This document shows positions 10,039 to 63,855 of a stretch of DNA of 64,000 nt, piece after piece (positions within the stretch are counted from its first letter, which is position 1; the number at the start of each line of letters is the position of its first letter). Made by a program: the position numbers and the translations under genes. Where the stretch lies: contig OZ210885.1 of the NCBI GenBank assembly GCA_964658305.1, forward strand, positions 5,208,001 to 5,272,000, given 5' to 3'. The notes beneath the pieces were generated by a model. The model saw nothing but the letters and a program-made list of their open reading frames with translations. It had not been told where the DNA came from and ran no database searches. This DNA comes from Leptogorgia sarmentosa. Its lineage: Eukaryota.

Positions 10039-13000
10039 TTATACAAAATAGTAAACTTCGACATCAGTTGGGGTGTAATTGTAAACTCCCGCCAGCAAAT
10101 TTTTGGCCTTAGACGTGGCATAAGCGTAACCAGATGGTGGTTGGTAGGTGTGGCCCAAGTTGGTATAGGAAGCAGTTCCAGCATTAGCATTGTTAGCAAC
10201 GTAAAGATCATGACCACCTCCAAATGTGGGACCGTAGCCATTATTGGTATATATAGCATTCGCCTGGTTTTGGTAGACTGCCATTTTGAAAGGTGCAAGG
10301 TGATCTCGATTGGCGAAGGAGAAAAGGAAGGATCCATCAGCTCTTATGTAACGAGGAGAACCTATTGAGAAACAACAATATAATATTGAAATACTTATTC
10401 TCACAATCATACCTCGTCAATTTGTTGACAAATTGAAGAAGGTAAAATCTACTAAAATATTAATTCAAGCGTGAATGGCATAACTAGATCAGAATGGAGA
10501 TGCTTTGTGACATTGCAGACACCATCACACAAATAGAGACTAGTCACTATTTAATTTCCATCCCTAACCGATACAGAAATCCACTCTTTATATAACGTTA
10601 GTTCAGCAACATCAAAGTTCTGCTGGTCCTGAGATGTAAAATTTTATTAGTTTCTGGAACCACCACATTCGTTTTTTCTTGTAGTTGCAGGTCACAAACT
10701 AGCCTTTTATTGCTAACTATGTGCTTTTTGAAATAGATACCTTTCAATTACGTATTAGGCACACAATTTGAAAAGATAAATGAGAAAAACACGACGATCT
10801 TTAATGAGAAGGACTTACCTCCCCATTGTGCTGCCGCATATCCACCAAAGACATACTGTCCAGATTTCACCAAAACAACAGTGGGTCCTTTGCTGTCACA
10901 GAAGGAATGGAATGTGCTGGATGCCCATCCATTAACAGAAGCTCGGTAGCAAAGTTTCATTTTCTTATCCTGTACTTCTGATGGCAGCCATTCCTTAAGT
11001 TGTTCAATCCACTCTTTGTTACCTCCCAGTACAGTTGAAGTGAAGAGGAGTTCTATACAAAATTAAATATTACGAAATTGAGATTTTAAATTCCAGTGGT
11101 TGATGCGCCAGCAATAGTAAAGTATTTTCATCCAGTTATGCCGGTTTTTGTATGATTAAGTTATAATTGAAGTAAAGTTGGTCGAAAAAGATCAGAAATA
11201 ACACTCTCTATATCGACTTATATGTTTTTCCGCCTTTCATAATTCAACTGTATCGTAGCGAAACGAGCGTAAATTATTTCATTGTCTTCCTTTCGCTTGG
11301 GCGAAAACTATTGTCAGTGACTGAAGAGACAAATTTAAATGAGGTTCGCATGGCGCAGAAATTTGAGTTGTCGCAATGTTTATAATGAAGACAGTTACCT
11401 TTCTTGGTACAAACCAGTCCAGTATATTCACTTGTACAGGAACATTTGAAACTTCCGTCTTCCTGGTTGGAACAGACACCACCATTTTGGCAGGGAGATA
11501 CTTCACAGGGGAGAACTAAGGACAAAAAATTGTCATTCACGACTTAACAAAAATAGAGGACATTTCTATCGACCTAAAATATCTCAGGCGATTATAAATA
11601 TATTGGTGTTTGCAGAGTTTTCTAGGTGTGACTGATTAGATAAATTTGCACATTATTCAATCATTATTACGTGTAATACAACAAAGATGATTTGAGGTAA
11701 ATACCTTTCTTAGAGCAATCAAATCCTTTAAATCCATCAGGACATTCGCACTCGAAACATTTAACACCATCGTCTGAACATTTACCATTGTTCTTACATG
11801 GCTGTCTGTCACATGGACGAACTGAAGAAACACAACATTATCAGAAGTCATTGTCGGCAATTAGCCCATAGTGATTTACGTTAACGCGTCTTAAGTACGG
11901 CCCAAGAAATAATAAGTCGCTGAAGGGCGACTATAACATTTTTTTCAAAATGGCCGCTAACTGCTTGGCTATGAAAGATATATTGGCCTAGAATTAGGGT
12001 ACGATGGTATACAACAATTTTAAAGGGCAAAAAAATGACAAAAATTGTCAAAAGACATCACTAAGACGTTCTGACGTGTCAATTATATTTTACAAAAACT
12101 CACTTCGTCGCTCGCGAAGTTAACGAAATTTACGCCATGATGTATAAACAATGGTGTAAAGTGGAAATAAGGACAAAATTTAAGGCTTAAACTCATGGCA
12201 AAACAATTAGTCGCCTCAATCTCGGGACTTAGGGGCTGTTTACATGAACCCTGCAGGGAGGGCTAGCCCTACCAATAGGGCTGGTTTTCATCCCTTGTTT
12301 ACATGATAGGGCTGGCTCGCTTCGATAAACAACTCATTTATTTTAGTACGCAGTCTAAAATGATATTTTGCTAAGAAAATTTTCGATTAATAGGGATTTC
12401 AAATAGCACGGGAGATCTCGCTTAGTAGGGCCAGCCCTCCCTGTAGGGCTCATGTAAACAGCCCCTTAGAAGTCAATAGTCATTCGCGGCTTCACGGCTC
12501 AGTGATTATGAGCGTGTAATCACTTCGGCAGCCTCAGCTATTGTTGTCAGAATCCTTGCGAAGCCAAGGATTGACTATATGGAATGGGAACTGAGAAGCT
12601 TTGAATTTGAAACATAATTTATCATGTTTTGAACGAAACTATAAATGCAATGGTAGGTTTCTTCGGGATTTTTCATGCAGCACTGAACTGCTGCCTATTA
12701 AGATGCTATCTAGCCGAAACTTGTTCTTCAATTTTACCTTTTTTCTCACACAAAATTCCTTCGTAGTTTGGTGGACATTTGCATGAAAATGTGCCATCAT
12801 CGTTGTCTACACACACTGCGGAGTTTCTGCAAGGACTTCCTTCACACACAGTCACTGCATTGATAAAAGAAACAACACTATTAGACTTTCAACAACAGTA
12901 ACATGCAAGTTTCCGTGTTGTTTTATACAATTGTACAAAGAAATTTCAAAATTTCAGTTAGATATAACTAAATTCAATAAAGTTCATTCAGAAAGATTGA

Positions 13001-14216
13001 TTTAAATTGCAATCGAAAATTGAAAATCAACGGGGGCACACATGTAATTTCAACACAAAACATCTCTTCCACTGTGGAAGGAGAACATGCAGCAAGTACA
13101 TCACAGTTCTCAGGTGCTGACATGAAAATTAATTTATCAGTCGATTCAATGTGGATTTGTACACGATTTCAATGATTATATGTCCCAATGTTTAAACACT
13201 TCAAGCACGGTAATAACAAACAACAGTCTTAAGATCACGACCATTTGCTGGCTGAATGCCGCTCCAAATTACAAATGCATATGCAAATTATAACGACAGA
13301 ATATTTCTCTGTAATCTGAAATCACCTTTTTCACCGCAGTCAAATCCTTTAAATCCAGTCGGACAATCACATTTCTGATGATTTCCAGTTAATGGTGTGC
13401 CATTGTTTTGACAAACATCCTCGGCTAGAATTCCAGCTACAAAAATTTATACATTGAAATAACATTGTAATATGTGGGCGTTTTCTCGATATATGGACAA
13501 GCCTATAATAAACCGCACCCTAACCTCAACACTTTCGTTTGCTCATAGATCAAGAATAAGCCAATACATGCGCGGTATAGTTTCAATTAAAATTATAAAT
13601 GTACAACAATATATTCATGTCATTGTCCTCGCATTCCCTTCCACAAACGAAAAGGAAGGAACACTTTATATATATATGTATTAGTCATGCATGAAAAATT
13701 CCCTAGCATATGAAACGACAGCATCCATTTGATCTTTCTGTTCTGTGGCGATCTTCATCTTAAAATTACTATGAACCAACAATAGTAAGGAACATTTCGA
13801 CCTTCACAAAAACGTTAGTAGCTAAAGAATGATTCTTAATTGGGATGCTGAATACTGTTGTTGATTATTTGGTGCCCGTTGCCAAGTGATTAAAATCATC
13901 GGAGTGCAACTGATTTTGCGCGGAATCACAATACATCGCTTTATATTTGTTATAAGAATAGAGTAAAGATTTTAAGTCGGTCCCCTTATAGTTAAAAAGC
14001 TTTCCAATTTCACATTTGCTCGAATATCAGGTTGTTGAAACATGGATTTATTCAAAGTAATAACAGTGAAGTTTGTAGAGGAATACAAATGCAGTGATAC
14101 AGTACAACACTAGCATGCAGTTATAATTATCACTTCGAGACAACGGACATACGCAATCTGTAATACATACCAGTTAGCAACATGAACACAGCAAAGCTTC
14201 CCGACATTTTCAACAT
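10039..14216 (-). CDS. Secreted signal peptide-4xEGF-TLDc protein, paralog A (354 aa, 7 exons)
   Basis: Exons (-): 14171-14216, 13326-13436, 12738-12854, 11705-11821, 11399-11515, 10819-11052, 10039-10361. All introns are GT-AG and phase 1; total 1065 nt in frame. MLKMSGSFAVFMLLTAGILA signal-like leader, EGF Cys patterns, and TLDc motifs LCYRASVNGW, FHSFCDSKGPTVVLVK, VFGGY, SFLFSF, GPTFGGGHDL, DVEVY. Confidence 0.9.
12232..12465. mobile_element. PIF/Harbinger-type MITE in intron 3 of paralog A
   Basis: TIRs ggggctgtttacatga / tcatgtaaacagcccc with TTA on both sides. The site is empty in paralog B (~18238) and paralog C. Confidence 0.85.
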
Positions 14217-15962
14217 TCTGAAATCTTCCAGGTTCTTTACTGTCGACTGTATGAAAGTTAGGCGTGTTTCTAAAGATAAAAATTACACAATTTAGAATAC
14301 AAGGTAAACATCAGCTTGCTGTAAATGATTGGGTTTGCGTATTGTAAAAAACCCGATACCAACAAGTCGAATAATATTAGGGAAGATACCTAGTGTCGAT
14401 ACAGCAAATTGCTCTTAAACTTCCTTGCTTGGTGAAAAGATAGCCAGCGCTCTAGGTGTTCGTGTAGCCGCAAGGCCAGGTTTGCTATCCTGATTTAACG
14501 CCCAAGTTCAGATTACACTCAAAGCAAAGCAATCAAGTATGAAAGATGTTACATTTCAATCTACTGTATAGCTACTTCGTGCGGAGCAAGCCATATAAGA
14601 ACAAATCTAAAACGACTTACATAACTTCGAACCAAAGCGAGATCTCTTTGCCAGTTGTTCTTCTCTTGACGGTCTTCCCAGGTTTAAACTTGAGATGGAA
14701 CTTGGGCGTCTCTTATGTTCGCTCATTAGACCGTTTGGCATTCAACTGTATCGTAGCGAAACGAGCGTAAATTTTTTTGTTGTCTTGTTAATACTCATGC
14801 AGAACTGATAATATGAACACAAAGAATGCACTATACGTTTCGCTTCGATTGAAGTGTACAAAGTCATTGGGAAATATAGGCTTACATGTTAATAATATGA
14901 TCCCACTTAACCGAGATTTAATGAAGCGTCAAATGATTTTGAGGTATTGAAATGAGTCATGTTTATGAACCGAAACAACTAATGTTTGGACACTTCCAGT
15001 ACTAATCAACAAAAAAGATATATTTTATAAATTGATGCCCAACAACATTTTGTCTGTTTGATTTTTCGGCAGAACAAGTCTTGAGCAAGTTGCAGTTGAG
15101 GTGTCCCTAATGGACGATTTTAGTCACACTGTACTTGCCCATCAAATGTAATTCCAAACCAACGCTGTTGCAAATAACCAATACAGCGTTTCCAAGTTTT
15201 TCCAGACTGGGTCTTGCCTCGTGTTCAGGGCTTAGACTGAATTCACAACGTTACTACCATACAACCTTGACCTTTCAATTTAAGGGTCGCCCACACCCGG
15301 TTGAGCAGCGCCCTTTTATCGCCATTCCTTAAATTCATTGTCAAATGGATTCAAGTAATTATTATTACTGGAATATTATACTTATCCCATATCTCGGAGA
15401 TTGAGTGTGTCGAATGTATTTAGTTCTTGCACTTGTGAACGTTTTTCGTCACCATTCGTAGTATTTTATTTATTAAGGAAATAAGGAATAGAACTAAAAC
15501 AACTGAAACAAATTTTATTAAAAAAAACTGGAAAAATTTTGAGATGCCGAAACGAAAATTTTACGAATGAAATATTTAGAATTGACGAAAAGCAAATTTG
15601 TCTTGTGCAGATGTTGAAAACGGGCAAAAATAAGTTGGGTGTTTCATGGCAGGAAAACAATGCTGTGGACCTCTTTTCCGAGGACCTGCTTATGTACCTC
15701 GTTGCTGTCGATTTACCGATCAACTATTATCACAAACACAAAAACAAATCATTGGATTCTTTTATTTTATCATTGTTACACATAAAACACACGATTAGTT
15801 ATCAAACTCATACCCTATTCATTCTAAGATGTATATAAGACGCTTCACACTTTGCAAGTGTTTGCATTTAAGAATCACAGGTTTTAAAAATCACAAATTA
15901 TGTAAAACGTTCCTTCACAACTTGCTATTTTAGAATAAAGCTAGAATGTGTCTTGAAAAACG

Positions 15963-18900
15963 TTATTCAAAATAGTAAACTTCGACATCAGTTGGGGTGT
16001 AATTGTAAACTCCCGCCAGCAAATTTTTGGCCTTGGTCGTGGTATAAGCGTAACCTGATGGTGGTTGGTAGGTGTGGCCCAAGTTGGTATAGGAAGCAGT
16101 TCCAGCATTAGCATTGTTAGCAACGTAAAGATCATGACCACCTCCAAATGTGGGACCGTAGCCATTATTGGTATATATAGCATTCCCATGGTTTTGGTAG
16201 ACTGCCATTTTAAAAGGTGCAAGGTGATCTCGATTGGCGAAGGAGAAAAGGAAGGATCCATCAGCTCTAATGTAACGAGGAGAACCTATTGAGAAACAAC
16301 ATGATAATATTCAAATACTTATTCTAACAATCTTACCTCGTCAATTTGTTGAACAAATTGAAGAGGGTAAAATCTACTAAAATATTAATTCAAGCGTGAA
16401 TGGTATAACTAGTTCAGAATGGAAATGCAACATTGCAGACAGCATCACACAAAGAGACCAGTGACTATTCAATTTCCATCCCTAACCGATACAGAAATCA
16501 ACTCTCGATATAATGTTAGTTCAGCAACATCAAAGTTCTGCTGACCCTGAGATGAAAACATGTATTTTCTGGAACCGGCAAACTTGTTTTACCTGACCCA
16601 CTTCTGATAGTTGCAGGTCAAAAACTAGCCAAAGAAGTTGTTATGTACCTTTTGAAATAGATACCTTTCAATTACGTATTAAGCACACAATTTGAAAAGA
16701 TAAAGGAGAAAAACACGACGATCTTTAGTAATAAGAACTTACCTCCCCATTGTGCCGCCGCATATCCACCAAAGACATACTGTCCAGATTTCACCAAAAC
16801 AACAGTGGGTCCTTTGCTGTCACAGAAGGAATGAAATGTGCTGGATGCCCATCCATTAACAGAAGCTCTGTAGCAAAGTTTCATTTTCTTATCCTGTACT
16901 TCTGATGGCAGCCATTCCTTAAGTTGTTCAATCCACTCTTCGTTACCTCCCAGTACAGTTGAAGTGAAAAGTAGTTCTATACGAAATGAAGACAAACAAA
17001 TATTACGAAATTGAGATTTTAAATTCCAGTGGTTGATGCACAAGCAATAGTAAAGTATTTTCATCCAATTGTGCCGATTGTTGTATGATTAAGTTATAAT
17101 TGTAGTACAGTTGGTCGAAAAGATCAGATAGTACACCGAAAATCGAGAAACTGAATTATGACACTCTCTATCTCGCCTTATGTTTTTCCGCCTTTCTTAA
17201 TTCAACTGTATCGTAGCGAAACGAGCGTAAATGATTTCATTGTCTTCCTTTCGCTTGGGCGAAAACTATTGTCAGTGACTGAACAGACAAATTTAAATGA
17301 CGTTCACATGGCGCAGAAATTTGAGTTGTGGCAATGTTTATAATAAAGACAGTTACCTTTCTTGGTACAAACCAGTCCAGTATATCCACCTGTACAGGAA
17401 CATTCGAAACTTCCGTCTTCCTGGTTGGAACAGACACCACCATTTTGGCAGGGAGATACTTCACAGGGGAGAACTAAGGACAAAAAATTGTCATTCACGA
17501 CTTAAAAAGAGAGGACATTTCTATCGACCTAAGATATCTCAGGAAATAGTCAATATTGGTCGTGTCCTATCTTAATTGCCATGTTGTGGAATTTTTACGG
17601 TGTTTGCAGAGTATGAAGTTTTCTATGTGACTGATTAGATAAAATTGCACATTATTCAATCATTATTACTGTGTAATACAACAAAGATGATTTGAGGTAA
17701 ATACCTTTCTTAGAGCAATCAAATCCTTTAAATCCATCAGGACATTCGCACTTGAAACATTTAACACCATCGTCTGAACATTTACCATTGTTTTTACATG
17801 GCTTTCTGTCACATGGACGAACTGAAGAAACACAACATTATTATCAGAAATTATCGTCAGTAATACTTTGATTGCATGACGCGTCTTTAGTATATAAATA
17901 TGAGGCGACCACAACAGGTGATTATAACTCACTGCAGAGTAACCAAAACATTTGTTCAAAATGACTGCTAACAGCATGGCGCCTGTTATGAACCAAGATT
18001 TTTGGCGGAAATTCGAGTATGATAGTTTCCAACAACAGTAAGAAAACACAGAAAAATTTGAGAAGGATTCCACTAAGAACCTTTGTCTTTTTGCGTCGCT
18101 TGCGAAGTTCATGTTTATGGACTTAACGACATGGTTTAAACAACGGTGTAAAGTGTATTTAAGGACAACATTTGCGATTTAAACTCAAAGTTCACTTCAG
18201 TTTATGCTGAAACTATTGATCGCCTCAAGCTCGGTAATTAGAAGTCAATAGTCATTCGCCCTTCGCGGCTCAGTGATTACGAGCTTGTAATCACCTTGAC
18301 TTCGGCGACTAAGCTAATTGTTGTTGCCATAATCCTTGTGAAGAGATTAGATAGGTTGCCACTATCGAGAGGGTATATAGTCGAACCATGTTGTCTAATT
18401 TACCTTTTTTCTCACACAGAATTCCTTCGTAGTTTGGTAGACATTTGCATGAAAATGTGCCATCATCGTTGTCTACACACACTGCGGAGTTTCTGCAAGG
18501 GCTTCCTTCACACGCAGTCACTGCAATGATAAAAGGAATGATACTTTGAGACTTTCAACAACAGTACCATGCGAGTTTCTGTAATGTTTTATATAATTGT
18601 GAAAATCTATATCAAAGTTTAAGTTAGAATCTCAGAATTTGTACATCAGACGGTTCAATGTGCATTTGTACACGATTTCAATTTTTATTGCTTGATATGT
18701 CCCAATGTTTAAACAGTAGAACTCCAAAGCAGTGCATGGTAATGACAGACAATAGTCTTAAGATCACTACCGAGTGTAAAATGCCGCTCCAAATTACAAG
18801 TTATAATGACAGAATATTTCAAATCACCTTTTTCACTACAGTCAAATCCTTTAAATCCAGTCGGACAATCACACTTCTGATGATTTCCAGTTAATGGTGT

Positions 18901-19486
18901 GCCATTGTTTTGACAAACATCCTCGGCTAGAATTCCAGCTACAAAAATTTATACATCGAAATAACATTGTAAATTTGTAATATGTGGGCGTTTTCTCGAT
19001 ATGTGGATACGCCTATACAAACCACACCCTAACGTCAACACTTTCGTTTGCTCATAGATCAAGAATAAGCCACTTCCTTAGTAGCCGAAGGATCATTCTT
19101 AATTGGGATCAGTCTGAATATTGTTGTCGGTTGTTTGGTGCCCGCGTTGCCAAGTGTTTAAAACCATTGAAGAGTGCAACCCATTTTGCGCGGAATCACA
19201 GTACATCGCTTTATATTTGTTATAGGAATAATTTAAAGATTTTAAGTCGGTCCCCTTATAGTTAAAAAGCTTTAAAATGTCACATTTGCTCGAATATCAA
19301 GTAATCGAAACAAGGATTTATTCAAAATAATAACAGTGAAGTTTGTAGAGGAATACAAATGCAGTAATACAGTACAACACTAGCATGCAGTTATAATTAT
19401 CACTTCGAGACAACGGGCATACGCAATCTGTAATACATACCAGTTAGCAACATGAACACAGCAAAGCTCCCTGACATTCTCAACAT
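15963..19486 (-). CDS. Secreted signal peptide-4xEGF-TLDc protein, paralog B (354 aa, 7 exons)
   Basis: Exons (-): 19441-19486, 18828-18938, 18404-18520, 17705-17821, 17357-17473, 16743-16976, 15963-16285. Exon lengths are identical to A, introns are GT-AG and the frame is open. Confidence 0.9.
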
Positions 19487-20123
19487 TCTAAAATGTTCCA
19501 CGTCCTTTACTGTCGACTGTATGAAAGTTAGGCGTGTTTCTAAACATAAAAATTACACAATTTACAATACATCAGCTTGCTGTATATGGTTGGATTTGCG
19601 TATTGTAAAAAAACCGATACCAACAAGTCGAATAATATTAGGGAAGCTACCTAGTGTCGATACAGCAAATTGCTCTTAAACTTCCTTGCTTGATGAAAAG
19701 ATAGCCAGCGCCCTTGCTGTTCATGTAGCTGCAAGGCCGGGTTTGTTATCCTGATTTAACGCCCAGTTCAGATTACACTCAGAGCAAAGCAATCAAGTAT
19801 GAAAGACATTACATTTCAATCTACTGTACAGCTACTTCGTGCAGAGCAAGCCGTATAAGAACAAATCTAAAACGACTTACATAACTTCGAACCAAAGCCA
19901 AATCTCTTTGCCAGTTGTTCTCCTCTTGAAGGTCTTCCCAGGTTTAAACTTGAGATGGAACTTGGGCGTCTCTTATGTTCGCTCATTAGACCGTTTGGCA
20001 TTCAACTGTATCGTAGCGAAACGAGCGTAAATTATTTCATTGTCTTGTTAATACTCATGCAGCACTGATAATGAACAGAGAACACAAAGAATACACTATA
20101 CGTTTCGCTTCGATTGAAGTTTA

Positions 20124-21320: not shown

Positions 21321-24300
21321 TCATGTCGAAGTATTCATTTGAGAGACGTGACAATTTTGAGATTCTGGCTTCCTTCTGGTCGATGCTTTGTTTCGCCACA
21401 TGTTTATTGTCCTCTTGTTTAAGACGAAGGCGACGAAGATGAAAACTCCTGTTTTTAAAACAAAAATCCTTTGAAACAAACTTTGCATCTTGGATATTTT
21501 TTGTTATACTCGTAGCCGTAGGCGTTGATACTGAATATGATAAACAACACTTGGTGGATCAGTGGGAACCCATTAATTGGAAACATTACCCCAATTATAA
21601 GAGAATAATTTCAAAATGCTCAAACAGACAAGTGCTCACCTTGTAGACTGTTGACAATGATAAAGAGGTAAGCCACAACAACGTTATGCGGAGCACCAAA
21701 ACCCAGGAACCACGTGACGCCCATCACTGTTGACAGCTTACAGTAGATTTTCGCATTCTTTCTTTTAGTGCCAGAATTCACTGATTTTTGTACAACGCTT
21801 GTTGCCTAAAATAGCAGCAATAATTCAATATGAATACATACAATTAACAGTATAATTTCTATAGACACGACAGGTAGAGGAATATCTGGGGAGAGATCAT
21901 TAATACCTTGAATTGTTTTTTGGATACTGTACCCGTAAATATAAAAACCACACAGCCATTGAAACAAGATATGAGTAGGACAAAAACTTATTTTTCTAAA
22001 GGCGATACGTGAAGTTTAGACACGTCATTAATTTACCTTGGTTACATCATGGATACTGAATATGGTCCTTATCAATGAGACGGCATTGAAAAGTAGCATG
22101 ATTCCAACTGGGACGTAGAAGAATAATATCAAAGCCAACCGTTGGCCAATCCAACACGACATTGATTCACCTGCCAAAAATACGAGAATAAGTTTAACAT
22201 CTTTTTATCCAACTGGCTTTTCAAATTTCCCGCATGCTCATTCGGCTTAGTTGTTCTCTTTTTATGCTTCCATTTTATGACATTTTCTCCTCAGATAAAC
22301 TTCTTCCATAAATGATAAATCAACCATTCTCTCTTTTGTAACATAAAAAATGCTGGAAAATTCAGATGAAAAATTGTCTCTGAATAATCGTTTCCTTACC
22401 ATATCCAATATGGATGGCATTTGTTTCCCCAAGTATGATGGTCAGTAACACGATCACAGTCGAAGTCGACATGGAGAAAATAACGTAACGGTGAAAATCG
22501 GAACGGCTTGAATTTGTACTCGAACATTCCCCTGAAAAAGCCCCAAAATGATTTTTAGGTGGTACTTTTTAAATTTTGGAGGGGTACGTCCCTTCTGATG
22601 GAAAAGCCTGGAGTGGTAAGTTTTGAGGTGATTTGTGATTTAAAAGGGCATAATATATATTTACCATAACACCCACCATTTCGGGAAAATGTCTTCGAGA
22701 TATCGTAACTCATGACTGTTGTCCATACAAAAGAAGATAGAATCGCCCAGTGTAACAAAATTGCCATAGCTTTGCATCCTGGACTTCCTGACGTCGCATA
22801 AGGACTGGCCAATAGGAGACCTTGATAAGCGATGAGTGATAGTGACAATGCAAGCAATATCAGACCTGGAATTGTTCTTAATGTTGTGAAATGGAGGTAC
22901 GTCATCACGACTGCTAGTAAACACGCGATAGATAAAGATAAACCAATCACAGTGAGATAACTTTGTATGACGTCATCAAGGCTTTCTGTAGTCTTCGAAC
23001 CTTCGGCTTCGTTATCGTCAGAACTCTGAGAAAACGACTTGTGATCGAAAAATAACGTCAACGAAGATTTTGAAATTATATTTTCTGGCGGAATTTGGAA
23101 TTTCTTAACGCTTTTTCCGTTGCATGAAGCACAGTGAAAATTTTTGTAAACTACACCGTCTGCTTCAAGTAATTGAGAATAATCTTTACACTTATTCACC
23201 AGGTCGTTGTATTTCAATGATTCTTCAGCGTTGACTGCAGATTCGCATAGCGTTGCCTTTGTGCAACGACTTACAGAAGCAGCACTTTCATTTCCCGGGG
23301 ATACATACCAGGTACAATTCTCCCGTAGGTAGGCACTGCCATATATGAAATCAGTCCCGTTTTTGACTTTGACTGGATCAAAGCATGCTACCAAAAAACC
23401 CCATCGAGTGAAGTTAGTAATCCCATGACACTGTGCATAATACGCGTTTCTATAGGTTTTTCCATCTTCGCCAGTAACCGGAATGCGTTCGACAATGTCC
23501 ATAGAGTTAGTGTCAGGTCTGATCCAATTTCGTGTTTGGCTCTGATTGCCTGTCATCTTTGTTACTGGACAACGGTTTATCATCATATAGGCGATGGTCA
23601 TCCGGCTCTTATTGTTTTTTGGTTGGTGGAATTTGGTATCCACACACTCCCAAAGTTGTTGTGCTGACTGATCAAATGGTTTTGTCGTTACGTTGCAACT
23701 GAACAAAACAGAGAAAAATACAGTCGATAAATAAGCAATATTATATTTAAGGAATAGAAAACATTTTCCTATGTTTACATCGAGTTATGTAAACACGAGT
23801 GCAAGTCTGGGAGAACGAGAAATGTGTGGAAACACCAGCCCGAAGGGAGAAAATAACACGATGACAAAAGCGGAATAACGCAATAGCGAGAAGCAGCGGG
23901 AAATAACTGTGTTCACATAATCTCACATCAACACGGCTGTTAGCCAATCACGCGCGCGCAATCTTTTCATTTACTTCCGGTTATTTTATAAAATACAATG
24001 ACATCATAGACAACATGCTCAATTTTTCACACAACATGTATCGTCCTTTTTTAAGAACTTACCTTGGCCAGTAATCCACGCAACAATCTTTATAAAGTGG
24101 ACATAATCTGTCGCAGTGACAGTAAGGGCCAACACCTCTCCTATCTCTTGTTTCATCGCAGCGTTTCACACAAGATTTATCATCCATTTTTAAGAAAAAA
24201 AGGTTTCCACTCCCAACTGGACGACCAAAGTTTTCGAGGATGATCGCTTTTTCAAACTTTTTGTAATCATCACGAAGTTCGACGTAGGCAGTGGACTCTG

Positions 24301-24870
24301 GATCATCTGTAAACAAGCAGACAGTTTTTGAAAAGAGTTGCTTTTCTCGAAATATCAGGCCCCCCTTGCTTACATTTCACTACGTTCTCGATGTACTGTA
24401 ACATAATATCTACTTAGGGCATTTTTGAATTTTTATTCTGGTCTTTTTTGTTTAATTATTTTAAATGTTCGAATGCAGTACACATCCAAATGGCGATCAT
24501 TTTCAGTTGAAGTGGCGCAAGAGGATCTATATCATATCCTTATTGAACCAGGGTCGCCAGAATTCGTGAATAAATTAGCCAAACCATTATTAGTACCGTC
24601 AAGGAAACAAAGAAAATAAGAAAACAAAAAGCAAAGAAGAACAATGAGCATTGTTAAAAGTTTAACTAATTTATTCAGGTGAACTGGGCAACCTTGTATT
24701 GAACTGAACCTGTGTTCTCCACTTTGACTCCATTGTTTCCTGAATCTGGGAATCTGAATCTTTAGTAGGGAGTTAAATTTTCGCTCACCGTATTCTTTGA
24801 TCAGTGTCGTTCTTGCAATGTGCCCAAGGATAATCTGACATGAAAGAAACTGAAGGACAAAACTATGCAT
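21321..24870 (-). CDS. Somatomedin-B domain class B (adhesion/Methuselah-like) GPCR, paralog 1 (~635 aa, 7 coding exons)
   Basis: Exons (-): 24789-24870, 24063-24306, 22677-23698, 22400-22531, 22037-22170, 21640-21805, 21321-21448; 1908 nt in frame. SMB motif SCVKRC...CHCDRLCPLYKDCCVDY. 7tm_2-like motifs LLHWAILSSFVW, GYGESMSCWI, KLSTVMGVTWFLGF, NSLQGVFIF. Exon 1 was chosen because its donor and frame are conserved in paralog 2. Confidence 0.85.
23746..23993 (-). mobile_element. Hairpin-element family 2 insertion in intron 2 of GPCR paralog 1
   Basis: Reverse-complement homolog of 51398-51735 with half of the hairpin deleted. Absent from the equivalent intron of paralog 2 (~31480). Confidence 0.8.
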
Positions 24871-28945: not shown

Positions 28946-31900
28946 CTATGTTCTCCTCTAACTGCTTATTTAGTAAAAGAGAAAAATTGGAAAAACTCAT
29001 TCCCTACAAAAGCACGCGGGTGTCTCAAAAGCCTGGGCCTGTAGGCTTCAGCTCACTCCGCCTATTGGGTAATCTGCCACTGGTTATACTCGCAGGCGTT
29101 GATACTGAATATGATTATATGATAAACAACACTTGGTACATCAATGGGAACCCAACTGATTTATTACCGTAAACTGTTGTGTTAATAGTGGTTCCGTCGT
29201 TAAACCCAAAGTTTAAACCAATTTATTGAGATTTCACGAATATTTGCAAAGAAAGGTTTGCTAAGCATATCCGCCACTATTCTGTTTCATTTTGGGATAG
29301 AAAAAAATGGCAGGTTCTGAAGAGGTCAGACAATGGGACTAGTAAACAAAACGCCAAGTAACCAAGTGTTGAAAGGGATATTTAGAACTTTTAATATTTT
29401 TAACATTATTTAAACTTTTAACAATTCATACATTTTTAAATGATGATCGTGCACCTTGAAGTGCTCACCTTGTAGACTGTTCACAATAATAAAGAGGTAC
29501 TCCATAACAACGCTATATGGAACACCCAAACCCAGGAACCACGTGACGCCCATCACCGTTGACAGCTTACAGTAGATTTTCGCATTCTTTCTTCTGGAGT
29601 TGGATTTGACTGATTTTTGAACAACTTTTGTTACCTAAAAGGCAGCAAGAATCCATGTATTATCATTTTTAGCGATGCTAAATTATACCTGGAGAGAGTT
29701 CAGTTGAATAAATTATTTTTAAGACATCCATGAAATTCTTCCATACATATACATATCACACAGCCATTGAAACAAGATATGAATAGGACAAAAACTTATT
29801 TTTCTAAAGGCAATACGTGAAGTTTAGACACGTCATTAATTTACCTTGGTTACATCATGGATACTGAATATGGCCCTTATCAAAGAGACGGCATTGAAAA
29901 GTAGCATGATTGCAACTGGGACGCAGAAGAATAATATCAAAGCCAACCGTTTGCCAATCCAACACGACATTGATTCACCTACAAAAAATACGAGAATAAC
30001 TTCTTGTATATTCCGCCTTCAAATTTTTTGTATATTCCGCCTTGTCGTTTTCATACTTTTTATGGGTCCTTTTTATGATATTTTTTCTCCGTTTATCCTT
30101 CTCTGTAAATCAACCTTTCAAACATAAAAATTCCTAAACAATTTGGACGACAAATATTGTTTCATTATAATCATTTCCTTACCATATCCAGCATGGATGA
30201 CATTTGTTTCTCCAAGTATGATGGTCAGTAACACGATTCCAGTCGAAGTCGACATGGAAAAAATAACATAACGGCGAAATCCAGAACGGCTTGAATTTGT
30301 ACTCGAAGTTTTCCCTGAAAGAGTCATAAAGTATTTTTAATTTTGGAATGGTGTATCCCTTCCGAGGTGATTTATAGGAGTACATATTGTATCTATATAT
30401 TGCCCTGGTTACCCACCATTTCGGGAAAATGTCTTCGAGACATCGTAACTCATGACTGTCATCCAGGTAAAAGAAGATAGAATCGCCCAGTGTAACAAAA
30501 TCGCCATAGCTTTGCATCCTGGACTTCCTGACGTCGCATAAGGACTAGCCAATAGGAGACCTTGATAAGCTATGAGTGATAGTGACAATGCAAGCAATAT
30601 CAGACCTGGAACTGTTCTTAACGCTGTAAAATGAAGGTACGTCATCACGACTGCTAGTAGACACACGATTGATAAGGATAAGCCAATCACAGTTAGATAA
30701 CTTTGTATGACGTCATCAAGGCTTTCTGCAGTCTTCGAGCCTTCGGCTTCGTTATCGTCAGAACTCTGAGAGAACGACTTGTGATCGAAAAATAACGTCA
30801 ACGAAGATTTTGGAATTATATTTTTTGGCGGAATTTGGAATTTCTTAACGCTTTTTCCATTGCATGAAGCGCAATGAAAATTTTTGTAAACTTCACCGTC
30901 TGCCTGAAGTAATTGAGAATAATCTTTACATTTGTGCACGAGGTCGTTGTATTTCAATGATTCTTCAGCGCTGACTGCAGATTCGCATAGCGTTGCCTTT
31001 GTGCAACGACTTACAGAAGCAGCACTTTCATTTTCCGGGGAAACATACCAGGTACAATTCTCCCGTAGGTAGGCACTGCCATATGTGAAATCAGTACCGT
31101 TTTTGACTTTGACTGGGTCAAAGCATGCTACCAACAAACCCCATCGAGTGAAGTTAGTAATCCCATGACACTGTGCATAATACGCGTTTATATAGGTTTT
31201 TCCATCTTCGCCAGTAACCGGAATGCGTTCGACAATCTCCGTGAAGTTATTGTTAGGTCTGATGCAATTTCGTGTTTGGCTCTGATTGCCTGTCATCTTT
31301 GTTACTGGACAACGGTTTATCATCATATAGGCGATGGTCATTCGGCTCTTATTGTTTTTTGGTTGGTGGAATTTGGTATCCACACACTCCCAAAGTTGTT
31401 GTGCTGACTGATCAAATGGTTTTGTCGTTACGTTGCAGCTAAAAAAAAAACAGCGAAAAATACGGTCGATAAATAAGCAACATGCTCAAATTTTTACACA
31501 ACATTTATCGTCCTTTTTTAAGAACTTACCTTGGCCAGTAATCCACGCAACAATCTTTATATAGTGGACATAATCTGTCGCAGTGACAGTAAGGGGCAAT
31601 ATCTCTGCTATCTCTTGTTTCATCGCAACGTTTCACACAAGATTTTTCATCCATTTTTAAGGAAAAACGGTTTCCACTTCCAACTGGACGACGAAAACTT
31701 GCGAGAAGAATCGCTCTTTCAAACTTCTTGTAATCATCACGAAGTTCGACGTAGGCAGTGGACGCTGGATCATCTGTAAACAAAGAATCATGTGATCGAG
31801 GTTTTTCATTCACTTTTTGAAAAGAGTTGCTTTTCTCGAAGTATCACATTACTACGTTCTCTATATGTACTGTAACATAATATCTACTAATTAGGGCATT

Positions 31901-32359
31901 TTTGAATTTTTATTCTGATCTTTTTTGTTTAGTTATTTTAAATCTTCGAATACAGTACACATCCAAATGGCGATCATTTTGAGATGAAGTGGCGCAAGAG
32001 GATCTCCATCGTATCCTTATTGAACCAAGGTTGTCATAATTCGTGAATAAATTAGCCAAACCGTCATTAATAGCTATCGTCAAGGAGGCAAAGAAAATAA
32101 GAAAACAAAAAGCAAAGAAGAACAATGAGCATAGTTAGAAGTTTAACTAATTTATTCAGGTGAACTGGCGGCAACCCTGTATTGAACTGAACCTGTGTTC
32201 TCTACTTTGACTCGATTTCTTGTGGTTTCCTAAATATGGGAGTTCAAATTTTAGTAGGGAGTTAAATATTCGCTTACCATATTCTTTGATCAGTGTCGTT
32301 CTTGCAATATGCCCAAAGATAATCTGACATAAAAGAAACTGAAGGACGAAACTATGCAT
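28652..32359 (-). CDS. Somatomedin-B domain class B-like GPCR, paralog 2 (~635 aa, 7 coding exons)
   Basis: Exons (-): 32278-32359, 31530-31773, 30417-31438, 30183-30314, 29845-29978, 29469-29634, 28652-28779. Same exon lengths as paralog 1, GT-AG introns, open frame. Confidence 0.85.
28841..29082. mobile_element. hAT-type MITE in the last intron of GPCR paralog 2
   Basis: TIRs cagtggcagatta / taatctgccactg; 8-bp TSD gttatatt/gttatact; single gttatact at the empty site in paralog 1 (~21503). Confidence 0.9.
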
Positions 32360-33571
32360 TTCCAGTTTGTTTCTTTTTTCAATTCTGTAATAAATTTGAC
32401 AAGAAGTAAATTTAGGAAAGTTCTTTTCCTGTTGACGGGAGATCGGTTTACAACCTGTCGAAAACGATCTCCCATCTTGAAAATTGGATTTTTTACACAA
32501 TCATGTAGAAGCTTCTTTTTTTCTGTAAGTCGTACTACTGAAGGAAGGCAAAGCAAAATATAACTAGTATTTGTAGAAGTCAATTTCAGTAAGCAGTTCA
32601 TTGGTTTAACCTTCAGCATTAAACATCTGCTCAACAGCCTATATCTTCACGTCTTCACTTTGTGGGTTTTCAGGCTAAAAAGACTCAAAGAAAAAAGGTA
32701 CGCTTTATAGCATGCCTATAATTTTAGTGTGCAGTTATAAGATAAGCAGTGATAAAAAGCAAAATGTGCAGTGATAAAATGTCTTCTGAACTTGGAAGAT
32801 GGGGTGAACGATACTTAATTGTCTTTGGTGTAAACTGCATGTGTATCATTTTCAAAATTTTGCAGGAAATGTCATGTCGGAGACTCTGGATTACAAAATT
32901 TCTACGGGTGCATGACCCCGCATCCCTCGAGAGTTTCGTCATGGCAACATCGCCTCTCATTTCTCAATACGAAAACTCTCTGTTCTCTACAGACATGCGA
33001 TATGAACCTAAAATGTCTCACGAAGTCGTAACAGTAGACTGGTATAAGAACGTGGTTCACCTCAAGGGCGTAACTGTACTAGGCTAAAACTTTACACGAA
33101 ATTAAATGTGCAGTAATAAAAATTTCTTAAAATTAGGTATGTTTTATACAGACCTGGCAATTACTGGGTTCCTCGCACTTTCTATTCAATACGGCCTTGC
33201 AATTTTCTTCTATCTAACCAGTTTGAGCAGGAAATATCACGTTAATCCGTTGCTAGAGCCACAGCGTTTTCTTGTTCCTTTCAACATACCGTCTGAGCAA
33301 GCAGCTTGCTGTAATTTTGAATTTATATTCGCTGAAATATTAATTATGATTGCGCGTCTGCTTGTATAATTGGCAACGATGACATCTGTGTCGGTTTCCA
33401 CTTTGTGCTCTCTTTAAATGGAACGCCTATTTCTCATGGATTTAATTAAATTTTAATTTTAGTTTTTTAATTTGTTTAAAAGGTCCGTTTAGTTTGTAGT
33501 CAGTACAATAAAATATGATAAGCCGAATAGACCAAATGTTACCAAGCTTTCGCACTAAACGTTCATCGTTA

Positions 33572-37608: not shown

Positions 37609-37760
37609 TTGTTTAAATTTGTACTTCAAGACTTTAAGCCGATCTATAGAAGTCTACACTCTATTGTAGCTGCCTAAATTTTGTTTTCAATTAATTACAG
37701 ACCTAACGATCTACAAAGTGACCGATAACTGCATGATGTACACAATCTGTATGATATCAG

Positions 37761-40545: not shown

Positions 40546-41233
40546 TTACCTTTGTTGTTTCGTTTCATAAAGATGACTCATTTCAATAATTTCCCAATGA
40601 CTTTATAAACTTCAATCGAAGCGAAACGTATAGTTGATTCTTTGTGTTCATTATCAGTGCTGCATGAGTGACTAAACAAGACAATGAAATGCATATACGC
40701 TCGTTTCGCTACGATACAGTTGAATGCCAAACGGGCTAATGAGCGACATAAGAGACGCCCAAGTTCATCCCAAGTTTAAACCGAGGAAGACCTTCAAGAG
40801 AAGAACAACTGGCAAAGAGATCTCGATTTGGTTCCAAGTTATGTAAGTCGTTTTAGATTTGTTCTTATACGCCTTGCTCTGCCTGAAGTAGCTGTACAGT
40901 TGATTGAAATGTAATGTCTTTCATACTTGATTGCTTTGCTCTGAGTGTAATCTGAACTGGGCGTTAAATCAGGATAACAAACCCGGCCTTGCAGCTACAT
41001 GAACAGCAAGGGCGCTGGCTATCTTTTCATCAAGCAACGGAATATAAGAGCTTTGCAGTATCAAAACTAGGTAGCTGCCCTGGCTTATTCGACTTGTTGG
41101 TATCAGATTTTTTACAGTACGCAAATCCAACCATATACAGCAAGCTGATGTATTCTAAATTATGAAATTTTTATGTTTAGAAACACGCCTAACTTTCATA
41201 CAGTCGACAGTAAAGGACCTGGAAGATTTGAGA

Positions 41234-44200
41234 ATGTTGAGAATGTCAGGAAGCTTTGCTGTGTTCATGTTGCTAACTGGTATGTATTACAGATTGCGTA
41301 TGTCCGTTGTCTCGAAGTGATAATTATAACTGCATGCTAGTGTTGTACTGTATTACTGCATTTGTATTCCGCTACACTCAAGACCAGTATTCAGCATCCC
41401 AATTAAGAATCACTCTTTAGCTACTAACGTATTTGTGAAGGTTGAAATGTTCCTTAATATTGTTGCTTCATAGTAATTTTAAGATAAAGATCGCCATAGA
41501 ACAGAATGATCAACAATGACTGCTGTGTTTCATATGCTAGAGAATTTTTCATGCATGACTAATACATATATATAAAGTGTTCCTTCCTTTTCGTTTGTCT
41601 CTGGAAGGGCATGCGAGGGCAATGATATGAATATATTATTGTACATTTAATTTTGAATTCAAGTATACCCCGCATTTATTGGAATATGAACTTCATTTAT
41701 GAAAAACCGAATGCAGTGATAGTTATAGGGTGTGGTTTTTTATAGGCTTGTCCATATATCGAGAAAACGCCCACATATTACAATGCTATTTCAATGTATA
41801 CATTTTTGTAGCTGGAATTCTAGCCGAAGATGTTTGTCAAAACAATGGCACACCATTAAATGGAAGTCATCAGAAATGTGATTGTCCGACTGGATTTAAA
41901 GGATTTGACTGTAGTGAAAAAGGTGATTTTAGATTGTAGAGAAATATTCTGTCGTTATAATTTGCATTTGTAATTTGGAGCGGCATTTTACACTCGGTAG
42001 TGATCTTAAGACTATTCTCTGTCATTACCATGCACTATTTTGGAGTTCTATACTGTTTAAACGTTGGGACATATCAAGCAATATAAATTGAAATCGTGTA
42101 CAAATGCACATTGAACCGTCGGACAAATTCATTTTCATGTCAACAGCTGAGAATTGTGATCTTCTATACTTGCTGCGCGGTCTCCCTCCACACAGTTCGT
42201 TTTGATGTTTTGTGTCCAACTTAAATGTGTGCCCCCGTTAACTTTCAGTATTCAATTGCGATTTAAATCGATAACTTTATTGAATTTAATTATATCTAAC
42301 TTAAATTTTGATATAGATTTTCACAATTGTATAAAACATTACAGAAACTCGCATGGTACTGTTGTTGAAAGTCTCAAAGTATCTTTCCTTTTATCATTGC
42401 AGTGACTGCGTGTGAAGGAAGCCCTTGCAGAAACTCCGCAGTGTGTGTAGACAACGATGATGGCACATTTTCATGCAAATGTCTACCAAACTACGAAGGA
42501 ATTTTGTGTGAGAAAAAAGGTAAATTAGTTCATGGTTCGACTATATACCCTCTCGATAGTGACAACCTATTTCATTGTTTCTCCAAGCAATTCAGTGTTG
42601 CATGAAAAATCCTAATAATAATCCCTTCACAAGGATTATGGCAACAACAATTAGCTTAGTCGCCGAAGTCAAGGTGATTACAAGCTCATAATCACTGAGC
42701 CGCGAAGGGGCGAATGACTATTGACTTTTAATTACCGAGCTTGAGGCGATCAATAGTTTCGGCATAAACTGAGTGAACTTTGAGTTTAAGTCGCAAATGT
42801 TGTCCTTAAATGCACTTTACACCGTTGTTTAAACCATGTCGTAAAGTCCATAAACAATAAACATGAACTTCCCAAGCGACGAAGTGAGTTTTGCAAGATG
42901 TAACTGACGTGAAAAGACAAAGATTCTTAGTGGAATCCTTTTCAAATTTTTCTGTATTTTCTTCCTGTTGTTGGATACTATCATACTCGAATTTCCGCCA
43001 AAAATCTTGGTTCATAACAGCCATGCTGTTAGCAGTCATTTTGAACAAATGTTTTGGTTACTCTGCAGTGAATTATAATCACTTGTTGTGGTCGCCTCAT
43101 ATTTATATACTAAAGACGCATCATGCAATCAAAGTATCACTGACGATAATTTCTGATAATAATGTTGTGTTTCTTCAGTTCGTCCATGTGACAGAAAGCC
43201 ATGTAAAAACAATGGTAATTGTTCAGACGATGGTGTTAAATGTTTCAAGTGCGAATGTCCTGATGGATTTAAAGGATTCGATTGCTCTAAGAAAGGTATA
43301 TTTACCTCAAATCATCTTTGTTGTATTACACAGTAATAATGATTGAATAATGTGCAATTTTATCTAATCAGTCACCTAGAAACGTCATACTCTGCAAACA
43401 CCGTAAAAATTCCACAACATGGCAATTAATATAGGACACGACCAATATTGACTATTTCCTGAGATATCTTAGGTCGATGGAAATGTTCTGTCTTTTTAAG
43501 TCGTGAATGACAATTTTTTGTCCTTAGTTCTCCCCTGTGAAGTATCTCCCTGCCAAAATGGTGGTGTCTGTTCCAACCAGGAAGACGGAAGTTTCAAATG
43601 TTCCTGTACTGGTGGATATACTGGACTGGTTTGTACCAAGAAAGGTAACAGTCTTTATTATAAACATTGCCACAACTCAAATTTCTGCGCCATGTGAACG
43701 TTATTTAAATTTGTCTCTTCAGTCACTGACAATAGTTTTCGCTCAAGCGAAAGGAAGACAATGAACTAATTTACGCTCGTTTCGCTACGACACAGTTGAA
43801 TTTAGAAAGGCGGAAAAAACATAAGGCGATATAGAGAGTGTCATAATTCAGTTTTTCGATTTTCGGTGTACTATCTGATCTTTTTCTGCCAACTGTACTA
43901 CAATTATAACTTAATCATACAACAATTGGCACAATTGGATGAAAATACTTTACTATTGCTTGTGCATCAACCACTGGAATTTAAAATCTCAGTTTCGTAA
44001 TATTTGATTGTCTTCATTTCGTATAGAACTACTTTTCACTTCAACTGTACTGGGAGGTAACGAAGAGTGGATTGAACAACTGAAGGAATGGCTGCCATCA
44101 GAAGTACAGGAGAAGAAAATGAAACTTTGCTACAGAGCTTCTGTTAATGGATGGGCATCCAGCACATTTCATTCCTTCTGTGACAGCAAAGGACCCACTG

Positions 44201-45056
44201 TTGTTTTGGTGAAATCTGGACAGTATGTCTTTGGTGGATATGCTGCGGCACAATGGGGAGGTAAGTCCTTATCATTAAAGATCGTCTTGTTTTTCTCCTT
44301 GATCTTTTCAAATTGTGTGCTTAATACGTAATTGAAAGGTATCTATTTCAAAAGGTACATGACAGCTTCTTTGGCTAGTTTTTGACCTGCAACTATAAGA
44401 AGTGGGTCAGGTAAAGCGAGTGTGCTGGTTCCAGAAACTAATAAAATTTTACATCTCAGGATCAGCAGAACTTTGATGTTGCTGAACTAACGTTTTACCG
44501 AGAGTTGATTTCTGTATCGGTTAGGCATTGAAATTAATAGTGACTGTTTTCTTTGTGTGATGGTGTCTGCAATGTTGCAAAGCATTTCCATTCTGAATTA
44601 ATTATACCATCCACGTTTGAATTAATATTTTAGTAGATTTTACCTTTGTTCAACAAATTGACGAGGTATGATTGTGTGAATGTTATAAAAGTGTTATTCA
44701 AAAGTATTTGAATATTATATTGTTTCTCAATAGGTTCTCCTCGTTACATAAGAGCTGATGGATCCTTCCTTTTCTCCTTCGCCAATCGAGATCACCTTGC
44801 ACCTTTTAAAATGGCAGTCTACCAAAACCAGGGGAATGCTATATATACCAATAATGGCTACGGTCCCACATTTGGAGGTGGTCATGATCTTTACGTTGCT
44901 AACAATGCTAATGCTGGAACTGCTTCCTATACCAACTTGGGCCACACCTACAAACCACCATCTGGTTACGCTTATACCACGACCAAGGCGAAAAATTTGC
45001 TGGCGGGAGTTTACAATTACACTCCAACTGATGTCGAAGTTTACTATTTTGAATAA
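41234..45056 (+). CDS. Secreted signal peptide-4xEGF-TLDc protein, paralog C (354 aa, 7 exons)
   Basis: Exons (+): 41234-41279, 41812-41922, 42403-42519, 43179-43295, 43528-43644, 44027-44260, 44734-45056. GT-AG introns, all phase 1, 1065 nt. Confidence 0.9.

Positions 45057-46448: not shown

Positions 46449-63855
<17,407 letters not shown>

What the first reader, a model, noticed from the sequence alone, without database searches (positions are those of the whole stretch)
10039..45056. Family of apparently secreted EGF-TLDc proteins
Seen: three intact genes encode a signal-peptide-like leader, four EGF modules on symmetric phase-1 exons and a C-terminal TLDc domain, with no transmembrane segment. 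Known: characterised TLDc proteins (OXR1, NCOA7, TBC1D24, MEAK7, TLDC2) are intracellular V-ATPase-binding or oxidative-stress proteins. Inference: exon shuffling has moved TLDc into the secretory pathway, suggesting an uncharacterised extracellular role (mucus, skeleton matrix, symbiosis or immunity).
Basis: partly seen in the sequence, partly recalled or inferred. Interest (0 to 1): 0.7.

Follow-up and report, generated by a model that had tools for sequence, protein, structure and literature searches.

The report
Secreted coral proteins with TLDc heads
Three neighbouring genes of a likely soft coral, one of them seen as a spliced transcript, encode a likely secreted protein that carries a TLDc domain (studied so far only inside cells) at the tip of a short EGF stalk, where it likely works as a sugar- or surface-recognition head and not as a proton-pump regulator.

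Summary
Observation confirmed: three intact 354-aa paralogues (95-98% identical), all introns phase 1, each with a hydrophobic leader, four EGF-type exons (the first has only four Cys), a C-terminal TLDc domain and no membrane anchor. Spliced contigs from three runs show all six coding joints of gene 3. In two of them an upstream joint puts an in-frame stop before the leader ATG. The fold is TLDc (Z 21.6), but the domain is not OXR1/NCOA7/MEAK7-type. It belongs to a large 'YGPTFGGGHD' subfamily that is exported repeatedly: on EGF, collagen-Ig, fibrinogen-like and lectin scaffolds in anthozoans, and in bacterial surface proteins (51 of 60 with a leader; NCBIfam NF038124). Only 2 of 8 MEAK7 V-ATPase contacts are identical. 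Best reading: a secreted stalk-and-head recognition protein, probably glycan-binding; the ligand is untested. Ten literature searches found no description. The scan reported secreted TLDc once before, in Naegleria (e1-671071).

The parts
14171..14269 (-). G1 exon 1: end of 5' UTR, ATG at 14216, first 15 residues of the leader
13326..13436 (-). G1 exon 2: end of leader and 4-Cys EGF-like module 1
12738..12854 (-). G1 exon 3: EGF 2
11705..11821 (-). G1 exon 4: EGF 3 with an extra Cys113
11399..11515 (-). G1 exon 5: EGF 4
10819..11052 (-). G1 exon 6: TLDc N-half (Cys204, Cys221, His218)
10039..10361 (-). G1 exon 7: TLDc C-half with YGPTFGGGHD motif, stop
19441..19539 (-). G2 exon 1: end of 5' UTR, ATG at 19486, leader
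18828..18938 (-). G2 exon 2: end of leader and 4-Cys EGF-like module 1
18404..18520 (-). G2 exon 3: EGF 2
17705..17821 (-). G2 exon 4: EGF 3 with extra Cys
17357..17473 (-). G2 exon 5: EGF 4
16743..16976 (-). G2 exon 6: TLDc N-half
15963..16285 (-). G2 exon 7: TLDc C-half, stop
40802..40842 (+). G3 non-coding upstream exon (3' end; its start is unknown). Splicing to 41181 makes an in-frame TAA before the ATG
   Evidence: joint in X4 and X6; frame; equivalent donors at 14621 (G1) and 19881 (G2)
41181..41279 (+). G3 exon 1: end of 5' UTR, ATG at 41234, leader
41812..41922 (+). G3 exon 2: end of leader and 4-Cys EGF-like module 1
42403..42519 (+). G3 exon 3: EGF 2
43179..43295 (+). G3 exon 4: EGF 3 with extra Cys113
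43528..43644 (+). G3 exon 5: EGF 4
44027..44260 (+). G3 exon 6: TLDc N-half
44734..45056 (+). G3 exon 7: TLDc C-half, stop; transcript contigs continue to about 45238

Best explanation
These three recent paralogues encode a likely secreted, roughly 36 kDa octocoral-type protein in which four EGF-type modules are predicted to form a spacer rod carrying a TLDc-fold head that likely binds an extracellular ligand, most likely a glycan on microbes, algae or mucus, rather than the V-ATPase. Shown: gene structure, splicing of G3, domain identity, and membership of the non-canonical YGPTFGGGHD subfamily. Inferred: leader cleavage near residue 20 and export; a Cys204-Cys221 disulfide in the head; pairing of the conserved spare Cys113 between two chains, which would give a two-headed, agglutinating molecule; and a binding patch formed by Tyr252, Tyr290, Thr293, His298, Tyr313 and residues 341-342. 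I put about 0.9 on secretion, 0.7 on a non-enzymatic binding head and 0.4 on a glycan ligand.
For: Export: hydrophobic leader and no other hydrophobic segment. In-frame stop upstream of the ATG on the RNA-supported joint. Leaders also in P0001, P0002 and P0034, at 80, 56 and 53% identity. Position of the head: it closes collagen-Ig-Sushi, fibrinogen-like, PAN, F5/8C-EGF and H-lectin/C-type-lectin-EGF proteins in anthozoans. It occurs with LamG, C-type lectin, collagen, HYR, Ig-like, T9SS and PEP-CTERM parts in bacteria, and with WSC or PAN in viral contigs. It is often repeated, up to 8 copies. Inside cells it ends BTB and TRIM proteins, at the position where substrate-recognition domains usually sit (that role is established knowledge). 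51 of 60 bacterial ORFs with their own Met have a hydrophobic leader. Loss of the V1 interface: of 8 MEAK7 contacts named in PMC9263379 (passages), 2 are identical (G211; P250, which varies in the family), 3 differ, 2 fall in MEAK7 insertions absent here, and 1 is not reliably aligned. V1 is cytosolic (PMC8804929 passages). Patch: covariation ranks T293-H298 3, Y290-H298 22, Y290-N342 27, Y313-Y341 31 and Y252-T293 42 of 12,122 pairs. Cys204 is present in 33 of 36 domains with extracellular partners versus 3 of 32 BTB/TRIM/IFI44 domains. In bacteria it occurs only together with Cys221 (35 both, 7 Cys221 only, 34 neither, 0 Cys204 only). The spare Cys113 is kept in P0001, P0002 and P0034.
Against: No ligand, localisation or proteomic evidence exists, and no fold match to a known lectin was seen; the only clear matches of the head are TLDc. 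Trp246, Tyr252, Tyr285 and His298 have like residues in MEAK7, so part of the conserved patch may be fold core; surface exposure could not be measured. The Cys204 association rests on only 2 independent pairs (sign test not significant), the 204-221 pair ranks only 984 in covariation, and 45 other leader-bearing sequences lack Cys204. dN/dS between paralogues is 0.17-0.29, with no sign of the diversification often seen in immune receptors. Asn342, next to the patch, is an N-glycosylation sequon. Most of the subfamily's top representatives lack a leader, so the conserved site must also work in the cytosol.
Confidence: 0.5

Rival explanations
1. Secreted matrix or mucus adaptor: the head binds a protein partner (collagen, gorgonin, mucin), and Cys113 cross-links the protein into mesoglea, axis or mucus.
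For: Canonical TLDc is a protein-interaction domain (PMC8608904 passages). Sister proteins carry collagen, Ig and FN2 modules. Purifying selection fits.
Against: No TLD term or family peptide in the Corallium rubrum skeletome (main text and 13 supplement files; file 11 not searchable) or in PMC7533068 (main text and 1 file); these cover other species and only mineral matrix. The same site is conserved in bacteria and viruses, which share no such protein partner.
Confidence: 0.2
2. Secreted enzyme, metal-binding or redox protein: His218, His298, Asp299, Thr293 and the cysteines form a catalytic or metal site, for example for antioxidant defence in mucus.
For: His218 is kept in 94-100% and Asp299 in 97-100% of members. 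TLDc was named 'domain catalytic' and is tied to oxidative stress (PMC5614904 passages).
Against: The same review states there is no evidence of enzymatic activity for TLDc. Tandem arrays of up to 8 copies and tip positions on stalks fit a binder better. Cys221 is replaced by Ala, Val or similar in 34 of 76 bacterial members.
Confidence: 0.12
3. Lumenal protein of lysosome, symbiosome or calcifying space that still acts on V-ATPase, from the exoplasmic side.
For: Same fold as the V-ATPase binders (Z 20-21.6). G211, equal to NCOA7 G815 which is needed for binding, is kept. A leader does not distinguish secretion from lumenal targeting.
Against: The known contacts are with cytosolic V1 subunits A, B and E. 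Most mapped contacts differ or are absent. The loop that touches subunit A carries a whole FN2 insertion in Pocillopora relatives. G211 is 85-97% conserved in bacterial and viral members too, so it is probably structural.
Confidence: 0.07
4. The EGF modules are the active part (growth-factor or Notch-type ligand) and the TLDc is a passenger.
For: The best sequence and fold hits of the N-half are Notch, Delta and DLK1 EGF repeats.
Against: No calcium-binding, O-fucose or O-glucose consensus in G1-G3. No DSL domain or membrane anchor. The TLD is the more constrained half (dN/dS 0.16-0.21 versus 0.21-0.44, few changes) and is the part shared by all scaffolds.
Confidence: 0.05
5. Not secreted, or an artefact of gene modelling or assembly.
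For: No SignalP run. The leader's h-region is modest (KD19 1.64). Transcript start sites are unknown.
Against: All G3 joints are seen in spliced contigs. The UTR joint closes the frame. The same architecture is found in independent species. G1-specific intron DNA is present in run X2.
Confidence: 0.03

Closest known systems
Canonical TLDc proteins (OXR1/Oxr1p, NCOA7, TBC1D24/Skywalker, MEAK7/TLDC1, TLDC2, Rtc5p)
   Same: Pfam TLD PF07534; same fold, VIA Z 14.8-21.6, rmsd 1.9-2.9; structural glycines and the terminal Glu kept
   Different: 18-25% identity; leader and EGF stalk; YGPTFGGGHD motif; Cys204/Cys221; most mapped V1 contacts changed or absent; the reviews I checked do not use the word 'secreted'
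NCBIfam NF038124 PEP_CTERM-anchored TLD domain-containing protein (bacterial surface protein, function unknown)
   Same: Same TLD subfamily (P0001 E 5.6e-18); exported; motif shared
   Different: Below the cut-off (65 versus 100 bits); no PEP-CTERM anchor; EGF stalk; the PEP-CTERM members found lack Cys204 and Cys221
Unstudied anthozoan EGF-TLD database proteins (P0001 and P0034 Paramuricea clavata, auto-named 'basement membrane-specific heparan sulfate proteoglycan core-like' and 'fibropellin-1-like'; P0004 Dendronephthya; Porites and Pocillopora EGF-TLD)
   Same: Same architecture; P0001 is 79-80% identical over the whole length; ESM Atlas clusters of 98 and 62 members with TLD+EGF, mostly Cnidaria
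   Different: Only automatic, misleading names; no functional study found
Stalk-and-head recognition proteins: collectins, ficolins, and the Xenia lectin LePin (recalled; paper not held)
   Same: Secreted spacer with a terminal globular head; P0279 combines H-lectin, C-type lectin, EGF and this TLD
   Different: The head is TLDc, not CTLD, fibrinogen or H-lectin; no collagen in the window genes; sugar binding untested
BTB-TLD, TRIM-TLD and IFI44-like intracellular proteins
   Same: Same subfamily and motif; IFI44 is called the most distant TLDc member (PMC5614904 passage)
   Different: Cytosolic scaffolds; mostly no Cys204 (3 of 32)

Membership tests
TLDc domain (PF07534) | Profile match above the gathering score | tested here: met
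   Both TLD exons of G1 and G3 score 33-58 bits, cut-off 24.5; P0001 scores 103.6
TLDc domain (PF07534) | TLDc fold | tested here: met
   AlphaFold2 model of the orthologue P0001 (pLDDT 91-98 over residues 171-350) matches 4ACJ at Z 21.6, rmsd 1.9, 162 residues
V-ATPase-binding TLDc proteins (OXR1/NCOA7/MEAK7 class) | Cytosolic location facing V1 | tested here: not met
   Leader plus disulfide-type EGF modules, frame closed upstream; by prediction, not experiment
V-ATPase-binding TLDc proteins (OXR1/NCOA7/MEAK7 class) | Conserved V1 contact residues | tested here: not met
   2 of 8 MEAK7 contacts identical, 3 changed, 2 without an aligned residue, 1 unreliable; HMM alignment only, no superposition
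V-ATPase-binding TLDc proteins (OXR1/NCOA7/MEAK7 class) | Physical binding to V-ATPase | not testable with these tools
   Needs pull-down
NF038124 PEP-CTERM-anchored TLD | Score at least 100 and a C-terminal PEP-CTERM anchor | tested here: not met
   65 bits for P0001; the protein ends at the last TLD strand
EGF-like domain (PF00008) | Six-Cys module above the cut-off | tested here: met
   Modules 2-4 score 25.9-31.5 bits, cut-off 21.5. Module 1 has 4 Cys and passes only EGF_2
Notch/Delta or calcium-binding EGF proteins | cbEGF, O-fucose or O-glucose consensus; DSL domain or membrane anchor | tested here: not met
   No consensus in G1-G3; no TM segment
Secreted proteins | Cleavable signal peptide, no TM or ER-retention signal | tested here: inconclusive
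   Hydropathy, orthologue leaders and the closed upstream frame agree; no SignalP or DeepTMHMM available
Lectins / collectin-like recognition proteins | Carbohydrate binding by the head | not testable with these tools
   Only domain context and conservation
Lectins / collectin-like recognition proteins | Multivalent assembly | not tested
   A spare conserved Cys113 suggests dimers; no complex was folded

The most novel reading that the evidence does not exclude
The YGPTFGGGHD-type TLDc is an unrecognised family of glycan-binding heads spanning bacteria, giant viruses, protists and corals. It is used on adhesins and secreted pattern-recognition proteins outside the cell and on BTB/TRIM scaffolds inside it. 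V-ATPase binding would then be the specialised use of one branch, and these octocoral genes would be a new class of secreted lectin acting at the coral-microbe or coral-alga interface.
Probability: 0.35. Interest if true: 0.82.

Novelty: new variant of a known kind. Interest (0 to 1): 0.6.

Why it matters
[quoted passage not shown] A very large sister subfamily (25,587 clusters at 50% identity matched my profile at E up to 0.001, a count that can include canonical TLDc and BTB-only matches) is repeatedly exported and cannot reach V1, so the domain must have a second function. These small, soluble, expressed coral proteins make that function directly testable. They could also supply a new recognition module for coral immunity or symbiosis, and help explain IFI44-like, BTB-TLD and the expanded Entamoeba TLDc genes (PMC12930195 passages).

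Tried and rejected
No whole genome is held, so copy number outside the window is unknown. No listed run is on record as RNA; X4-X6 are taken as RNA because they cover exons only and are spliced. G1 had no spliced-contig cover over its EGF and TLD exons at 95% likeness, and the joints laid on G2 are the G3-type contigs (same depths, differences from G2). Expression of G1 and G2 is therefore not shown, which is no evidence of silence. A single-exon scan of prokaryotic genomes found 0 relatives among 126 stretches; the alignment scan then found them. The careful tree did not finish, so only the quick tree is quoted. Octocoral TRIM-TLD proteins fell inside the anthozoan clade there but outside the all-Cys204 clade in FastTree, so re-internalisation is not claimed. 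No canonical TLDc outgroup was in hand, so no root, donor or horizontal transfer is claimed. The phylogeny-aware test of Cys204 had too few independent pairs. Complex prediction of head self-assembly was not available. The fold search found no lectin fold. Literature searches without a description of secreted or coral TLDc. The library lacks most subscription papers; bioRxiv supplements and other papers' supplements were not seen and could list these proteins. The LePin paper is not held. TFGGGHD at 100% in the bacterial and viral sets is a result of the search pattern and was not used as evidence.
Full report
1. Observation. Self-comparison shows three copies of a roughly 5-kb unit: two in tandem on the minus strand and one inverted 21 kb away. 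Gene models built from splice sites give three 354-aa proteins with 7 coding exons, all six introns GT-AG and phase 1, and no internal stop; they are 95-98% identical. A translated search finds no further copy in the window. Pfam places EGF on exons 3-5, a marginal EGF_2 on exon 2 and TLD on exons 6-7. Module 1 has lost its first and third cysteines, which pair with each other in EGF (established knowledge). Module 3 has a seventh cysteine, leaving 25 Cys in all and one likely unpaired. Pairwise dN/dS is 0.17-0.29, on 7-18 amino-acid-changing differences.

2. Transcripts. Six runs hold the G3 region, none on record as RNA. I laid 4 of the 6 on G3. X4-X6 (one study) cover exons and give all six coding joints in 3 of 3 runs; X1 covers introns and gives none. 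A further joint, 40842 to 41181 (2 of 3 runs), creates an in-frame stop before the ATG, and the same donor and stop exist in G1 and G2. The contigs match G3; G1 and G2 are not shown to be expressed. A low-depth contig with 11 differences over exon 2 points to another expressed paralogue.

3. Organism and close relatives. The best hit is a 357-aa Paramuricea clavata protein with the same architecture, 79-80% identical, so the window is likely from an octocoral. Two more leader-4xEGF-TLD proteins lie at 53-57% (P0002, P0034). All keep a hydrophobic leader and the spare Cys. The ESM Atlas has two mostly cnidarian TLD+EGF clusters of 98 and 62 members. The architecture is thus in databases under automatic names.

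4. Which TLDc. A model of P0001 built with a 103-sequence alignment is confident (mean pLDDT 89.8). Its head matches the solved TLDc domains at Z 14.8-21.6 with 18-25% identity, and nothing else convincingly. The close relatives are not OXR1/NCOA7/MEAK7. They form a subfamily marked by FHxxC and YGPTFGGGHD that includes BTB-TLD, TRIM-TLD and IFI44-like proteins. A profile search matched 25,587 clusters at E up to 0.001 and 4,028 at 1e-30 (the profile includes some N-terminal columns). Mapping the eight mEAK-7 contacts given in PMC9263379 (passages) through HMM alignments: G276 = G211; P316 = P250 (P in at most a fifth of the anthozoan set); H277, Q317 and Y341 changed; T354 and Y367 in insertions that this subfamily lacks; K384 unreliable. 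NCOA7 G815, needed for binding (PMC8608904 passages), is kept, but it is equally kept in bacteria.

5. The subfamily is exported again and again. In anthozoans the head ends EGF, collagen-Ig(-Sushi), fibrinogen-like, PAN-like, F5/8C-EGF and H-lectin/C-type-lectin-EGF proteins. In a quick tree of 89 of 269 domains, these fall in one 36-row group with SH-aLRT 91, which is not starred; the Stylophora BTB-TLD lies outside it. Pocillopora relatives carry an FN2 module inside the TLD right after the Trp-Gly where the window genes have their internal phase-1 intron: direct evidence of exon shuffling, in the loop that contacts subunit A in mEAK-7. In prokaryotic genomes 107 of 140 pattern matches were relatives and 79 loci were kept, mostly MAGs but also isolates. 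Of 60 ORFs with their own Met, 51 have a hydrophobic leader by a crude window test. In the 24 ORFs scanned, partners include LamG, C-type lectin, collagen, HYR, Ig-like, T9SS and PEP-CTERM parts, and WSC or PAN in viral contigs. Three of 7 tested pass NCBIfam NF038124, a named but uncharacterised bacterial surface TLD family; the coral proteins match it below the cut-off. Other hits include FN3-TLD receptors, TLD-MACPF, STIG1-TLD and TLD-EGF-LamG (28 proteins scanned). Against over-reading: most of the 150 top representatives lack a leader. An earlier scan note reports secreted TLDc in Naegleria (not checked).

6. A possible extracellular adaptation. Cys204 is found in 34 of 34 domains of the hand-picked anthozoan-clade set. 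It is in 33 of 36 domains with extracellular partners against 3 of 32 BTB/TRIM/IFI44 domains (sets picked by hand from 269). 52 of 53 domains with Cys204 also have Cys221, as do 35 of 35 in bacteria. A disulfide is likely but not shown: independent pairs are too few, covariation ranks the pair 984 of 12,122, and 45 leader-bearing sequences lack Cys204.

7. How it most likely works. Shown: gene structure, G3 splicing, domains, subfamily. Inferred: co-translational export and leader removal; EGF modules acting as a rod, since they lack calcium-binding and Notch-type glycosylation motifs; dimerisation through Cys113; and ligand binding at the patch whose residues covary (T293-H298, Y290-H298, Y290-N342, Y313-Y341, Y252-T293). 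H218, W246, Y252, Y285, Y290 and Y313 stay at 82-97% in bacterial and viral members without being selected for. A ligand common to such different organisms, a Tyr/His/Asp/Thr-rich site and lectin neighbours point to a glycan. W246, Y252, Y285 and H298 have like residues in mEAK-7, so this remains a hypothesis (0.4). The role would be recognition or agglutination of microbes or algae at the mucus or gut surface. Two octocoral skeleton proteomes gave no hit for the domain name or four family peptides (PMC7853314: passages and 13 supplement files, file 11 unreadable; PMC7533068: term search and 1 file).

8. Literature and novelty. Ten full-text searches found no account of secreted or coral TLDc. 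I saw passages of PMC13570293 (zero occurrences of 'secreted', 'extracellular' or 'bacteria'), PMC5614904, PMC8608904, PMC9263379, PMC9174246, PMC8804929 and PMC12930195; all other papers only as search listings. LePin, collectins and ficolins are recalled. Verdict: real and likely secreted, a new variant of a known domain family. Interest 0.6.

Noticed in passing
P0050, P0051, P0053, P0108 (Pocillopora): An FN2 module is inserted inside the TLD domain at the place of the window genes' internal phase-1 intron.
   Followed up: partly
P0037, P0039: RING/B-box TRIM-like proteins (P0039 from Dendronephthya) end in this TLD and keep Cys204; their place in the secreted clade is unstable between trees.
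   Followed up: partly
P0070-P0136 group: A family of about 35 unnamed eukaryote-like proteins with leader, acidic helical region, dibasic site and TLD, lacking Cys204: apparently a separate secreted lineage.
   Followed up: no
L080-L119: 40 viral contigs (many labelled giant-virus MAGs) encode 675-1,250-aa proteins with this TLD, some with an N-terminal hydrophobic segment and WSC or PAN domains.
   Followed up: partly
L021:1471-3495, L022: Nitrospina proteins with leader and TLD; L021 has a collagen repeat, paralleling coral collagen-Ig-TLD.
   Followed up: no
P0184, P0279: Four TLDs fused to MACPF; H-lectin, C-type lectin, EGF and TLD in one secreted Oculina protein.
   Followed up: no
window 21630-25500 and 29459-33500 (-): Two tandem secretin-family (7tm_2) GPCR genes with a long Cys-containing N-terminal exon lie between G2 and G3.
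   Followed up: no
window 26271-28945: A 1,335-bp tandem duplicate at 99.9% identity: a very recent duplication or an assembly artefact.
   Followed up: no
window 49644-50549 (+): Single-exon rhodopsin-family GPCR.
   Followed up: no
window 58557-61588 (-): Exons of a family B DNA polymerase (Pfam); they read like polymerase delta catalytic subunit (recalled).
   Followed up: no
window 6597-8356 and 52532-53114: Tandem repeat arrays; the first is strongly G/T-skewed.
   Followed up: no
window 41813-41920: A low-depth spliced-run contig with 11 differences suggests a fourth expressed paralogue outside the window.
   Followed up: no
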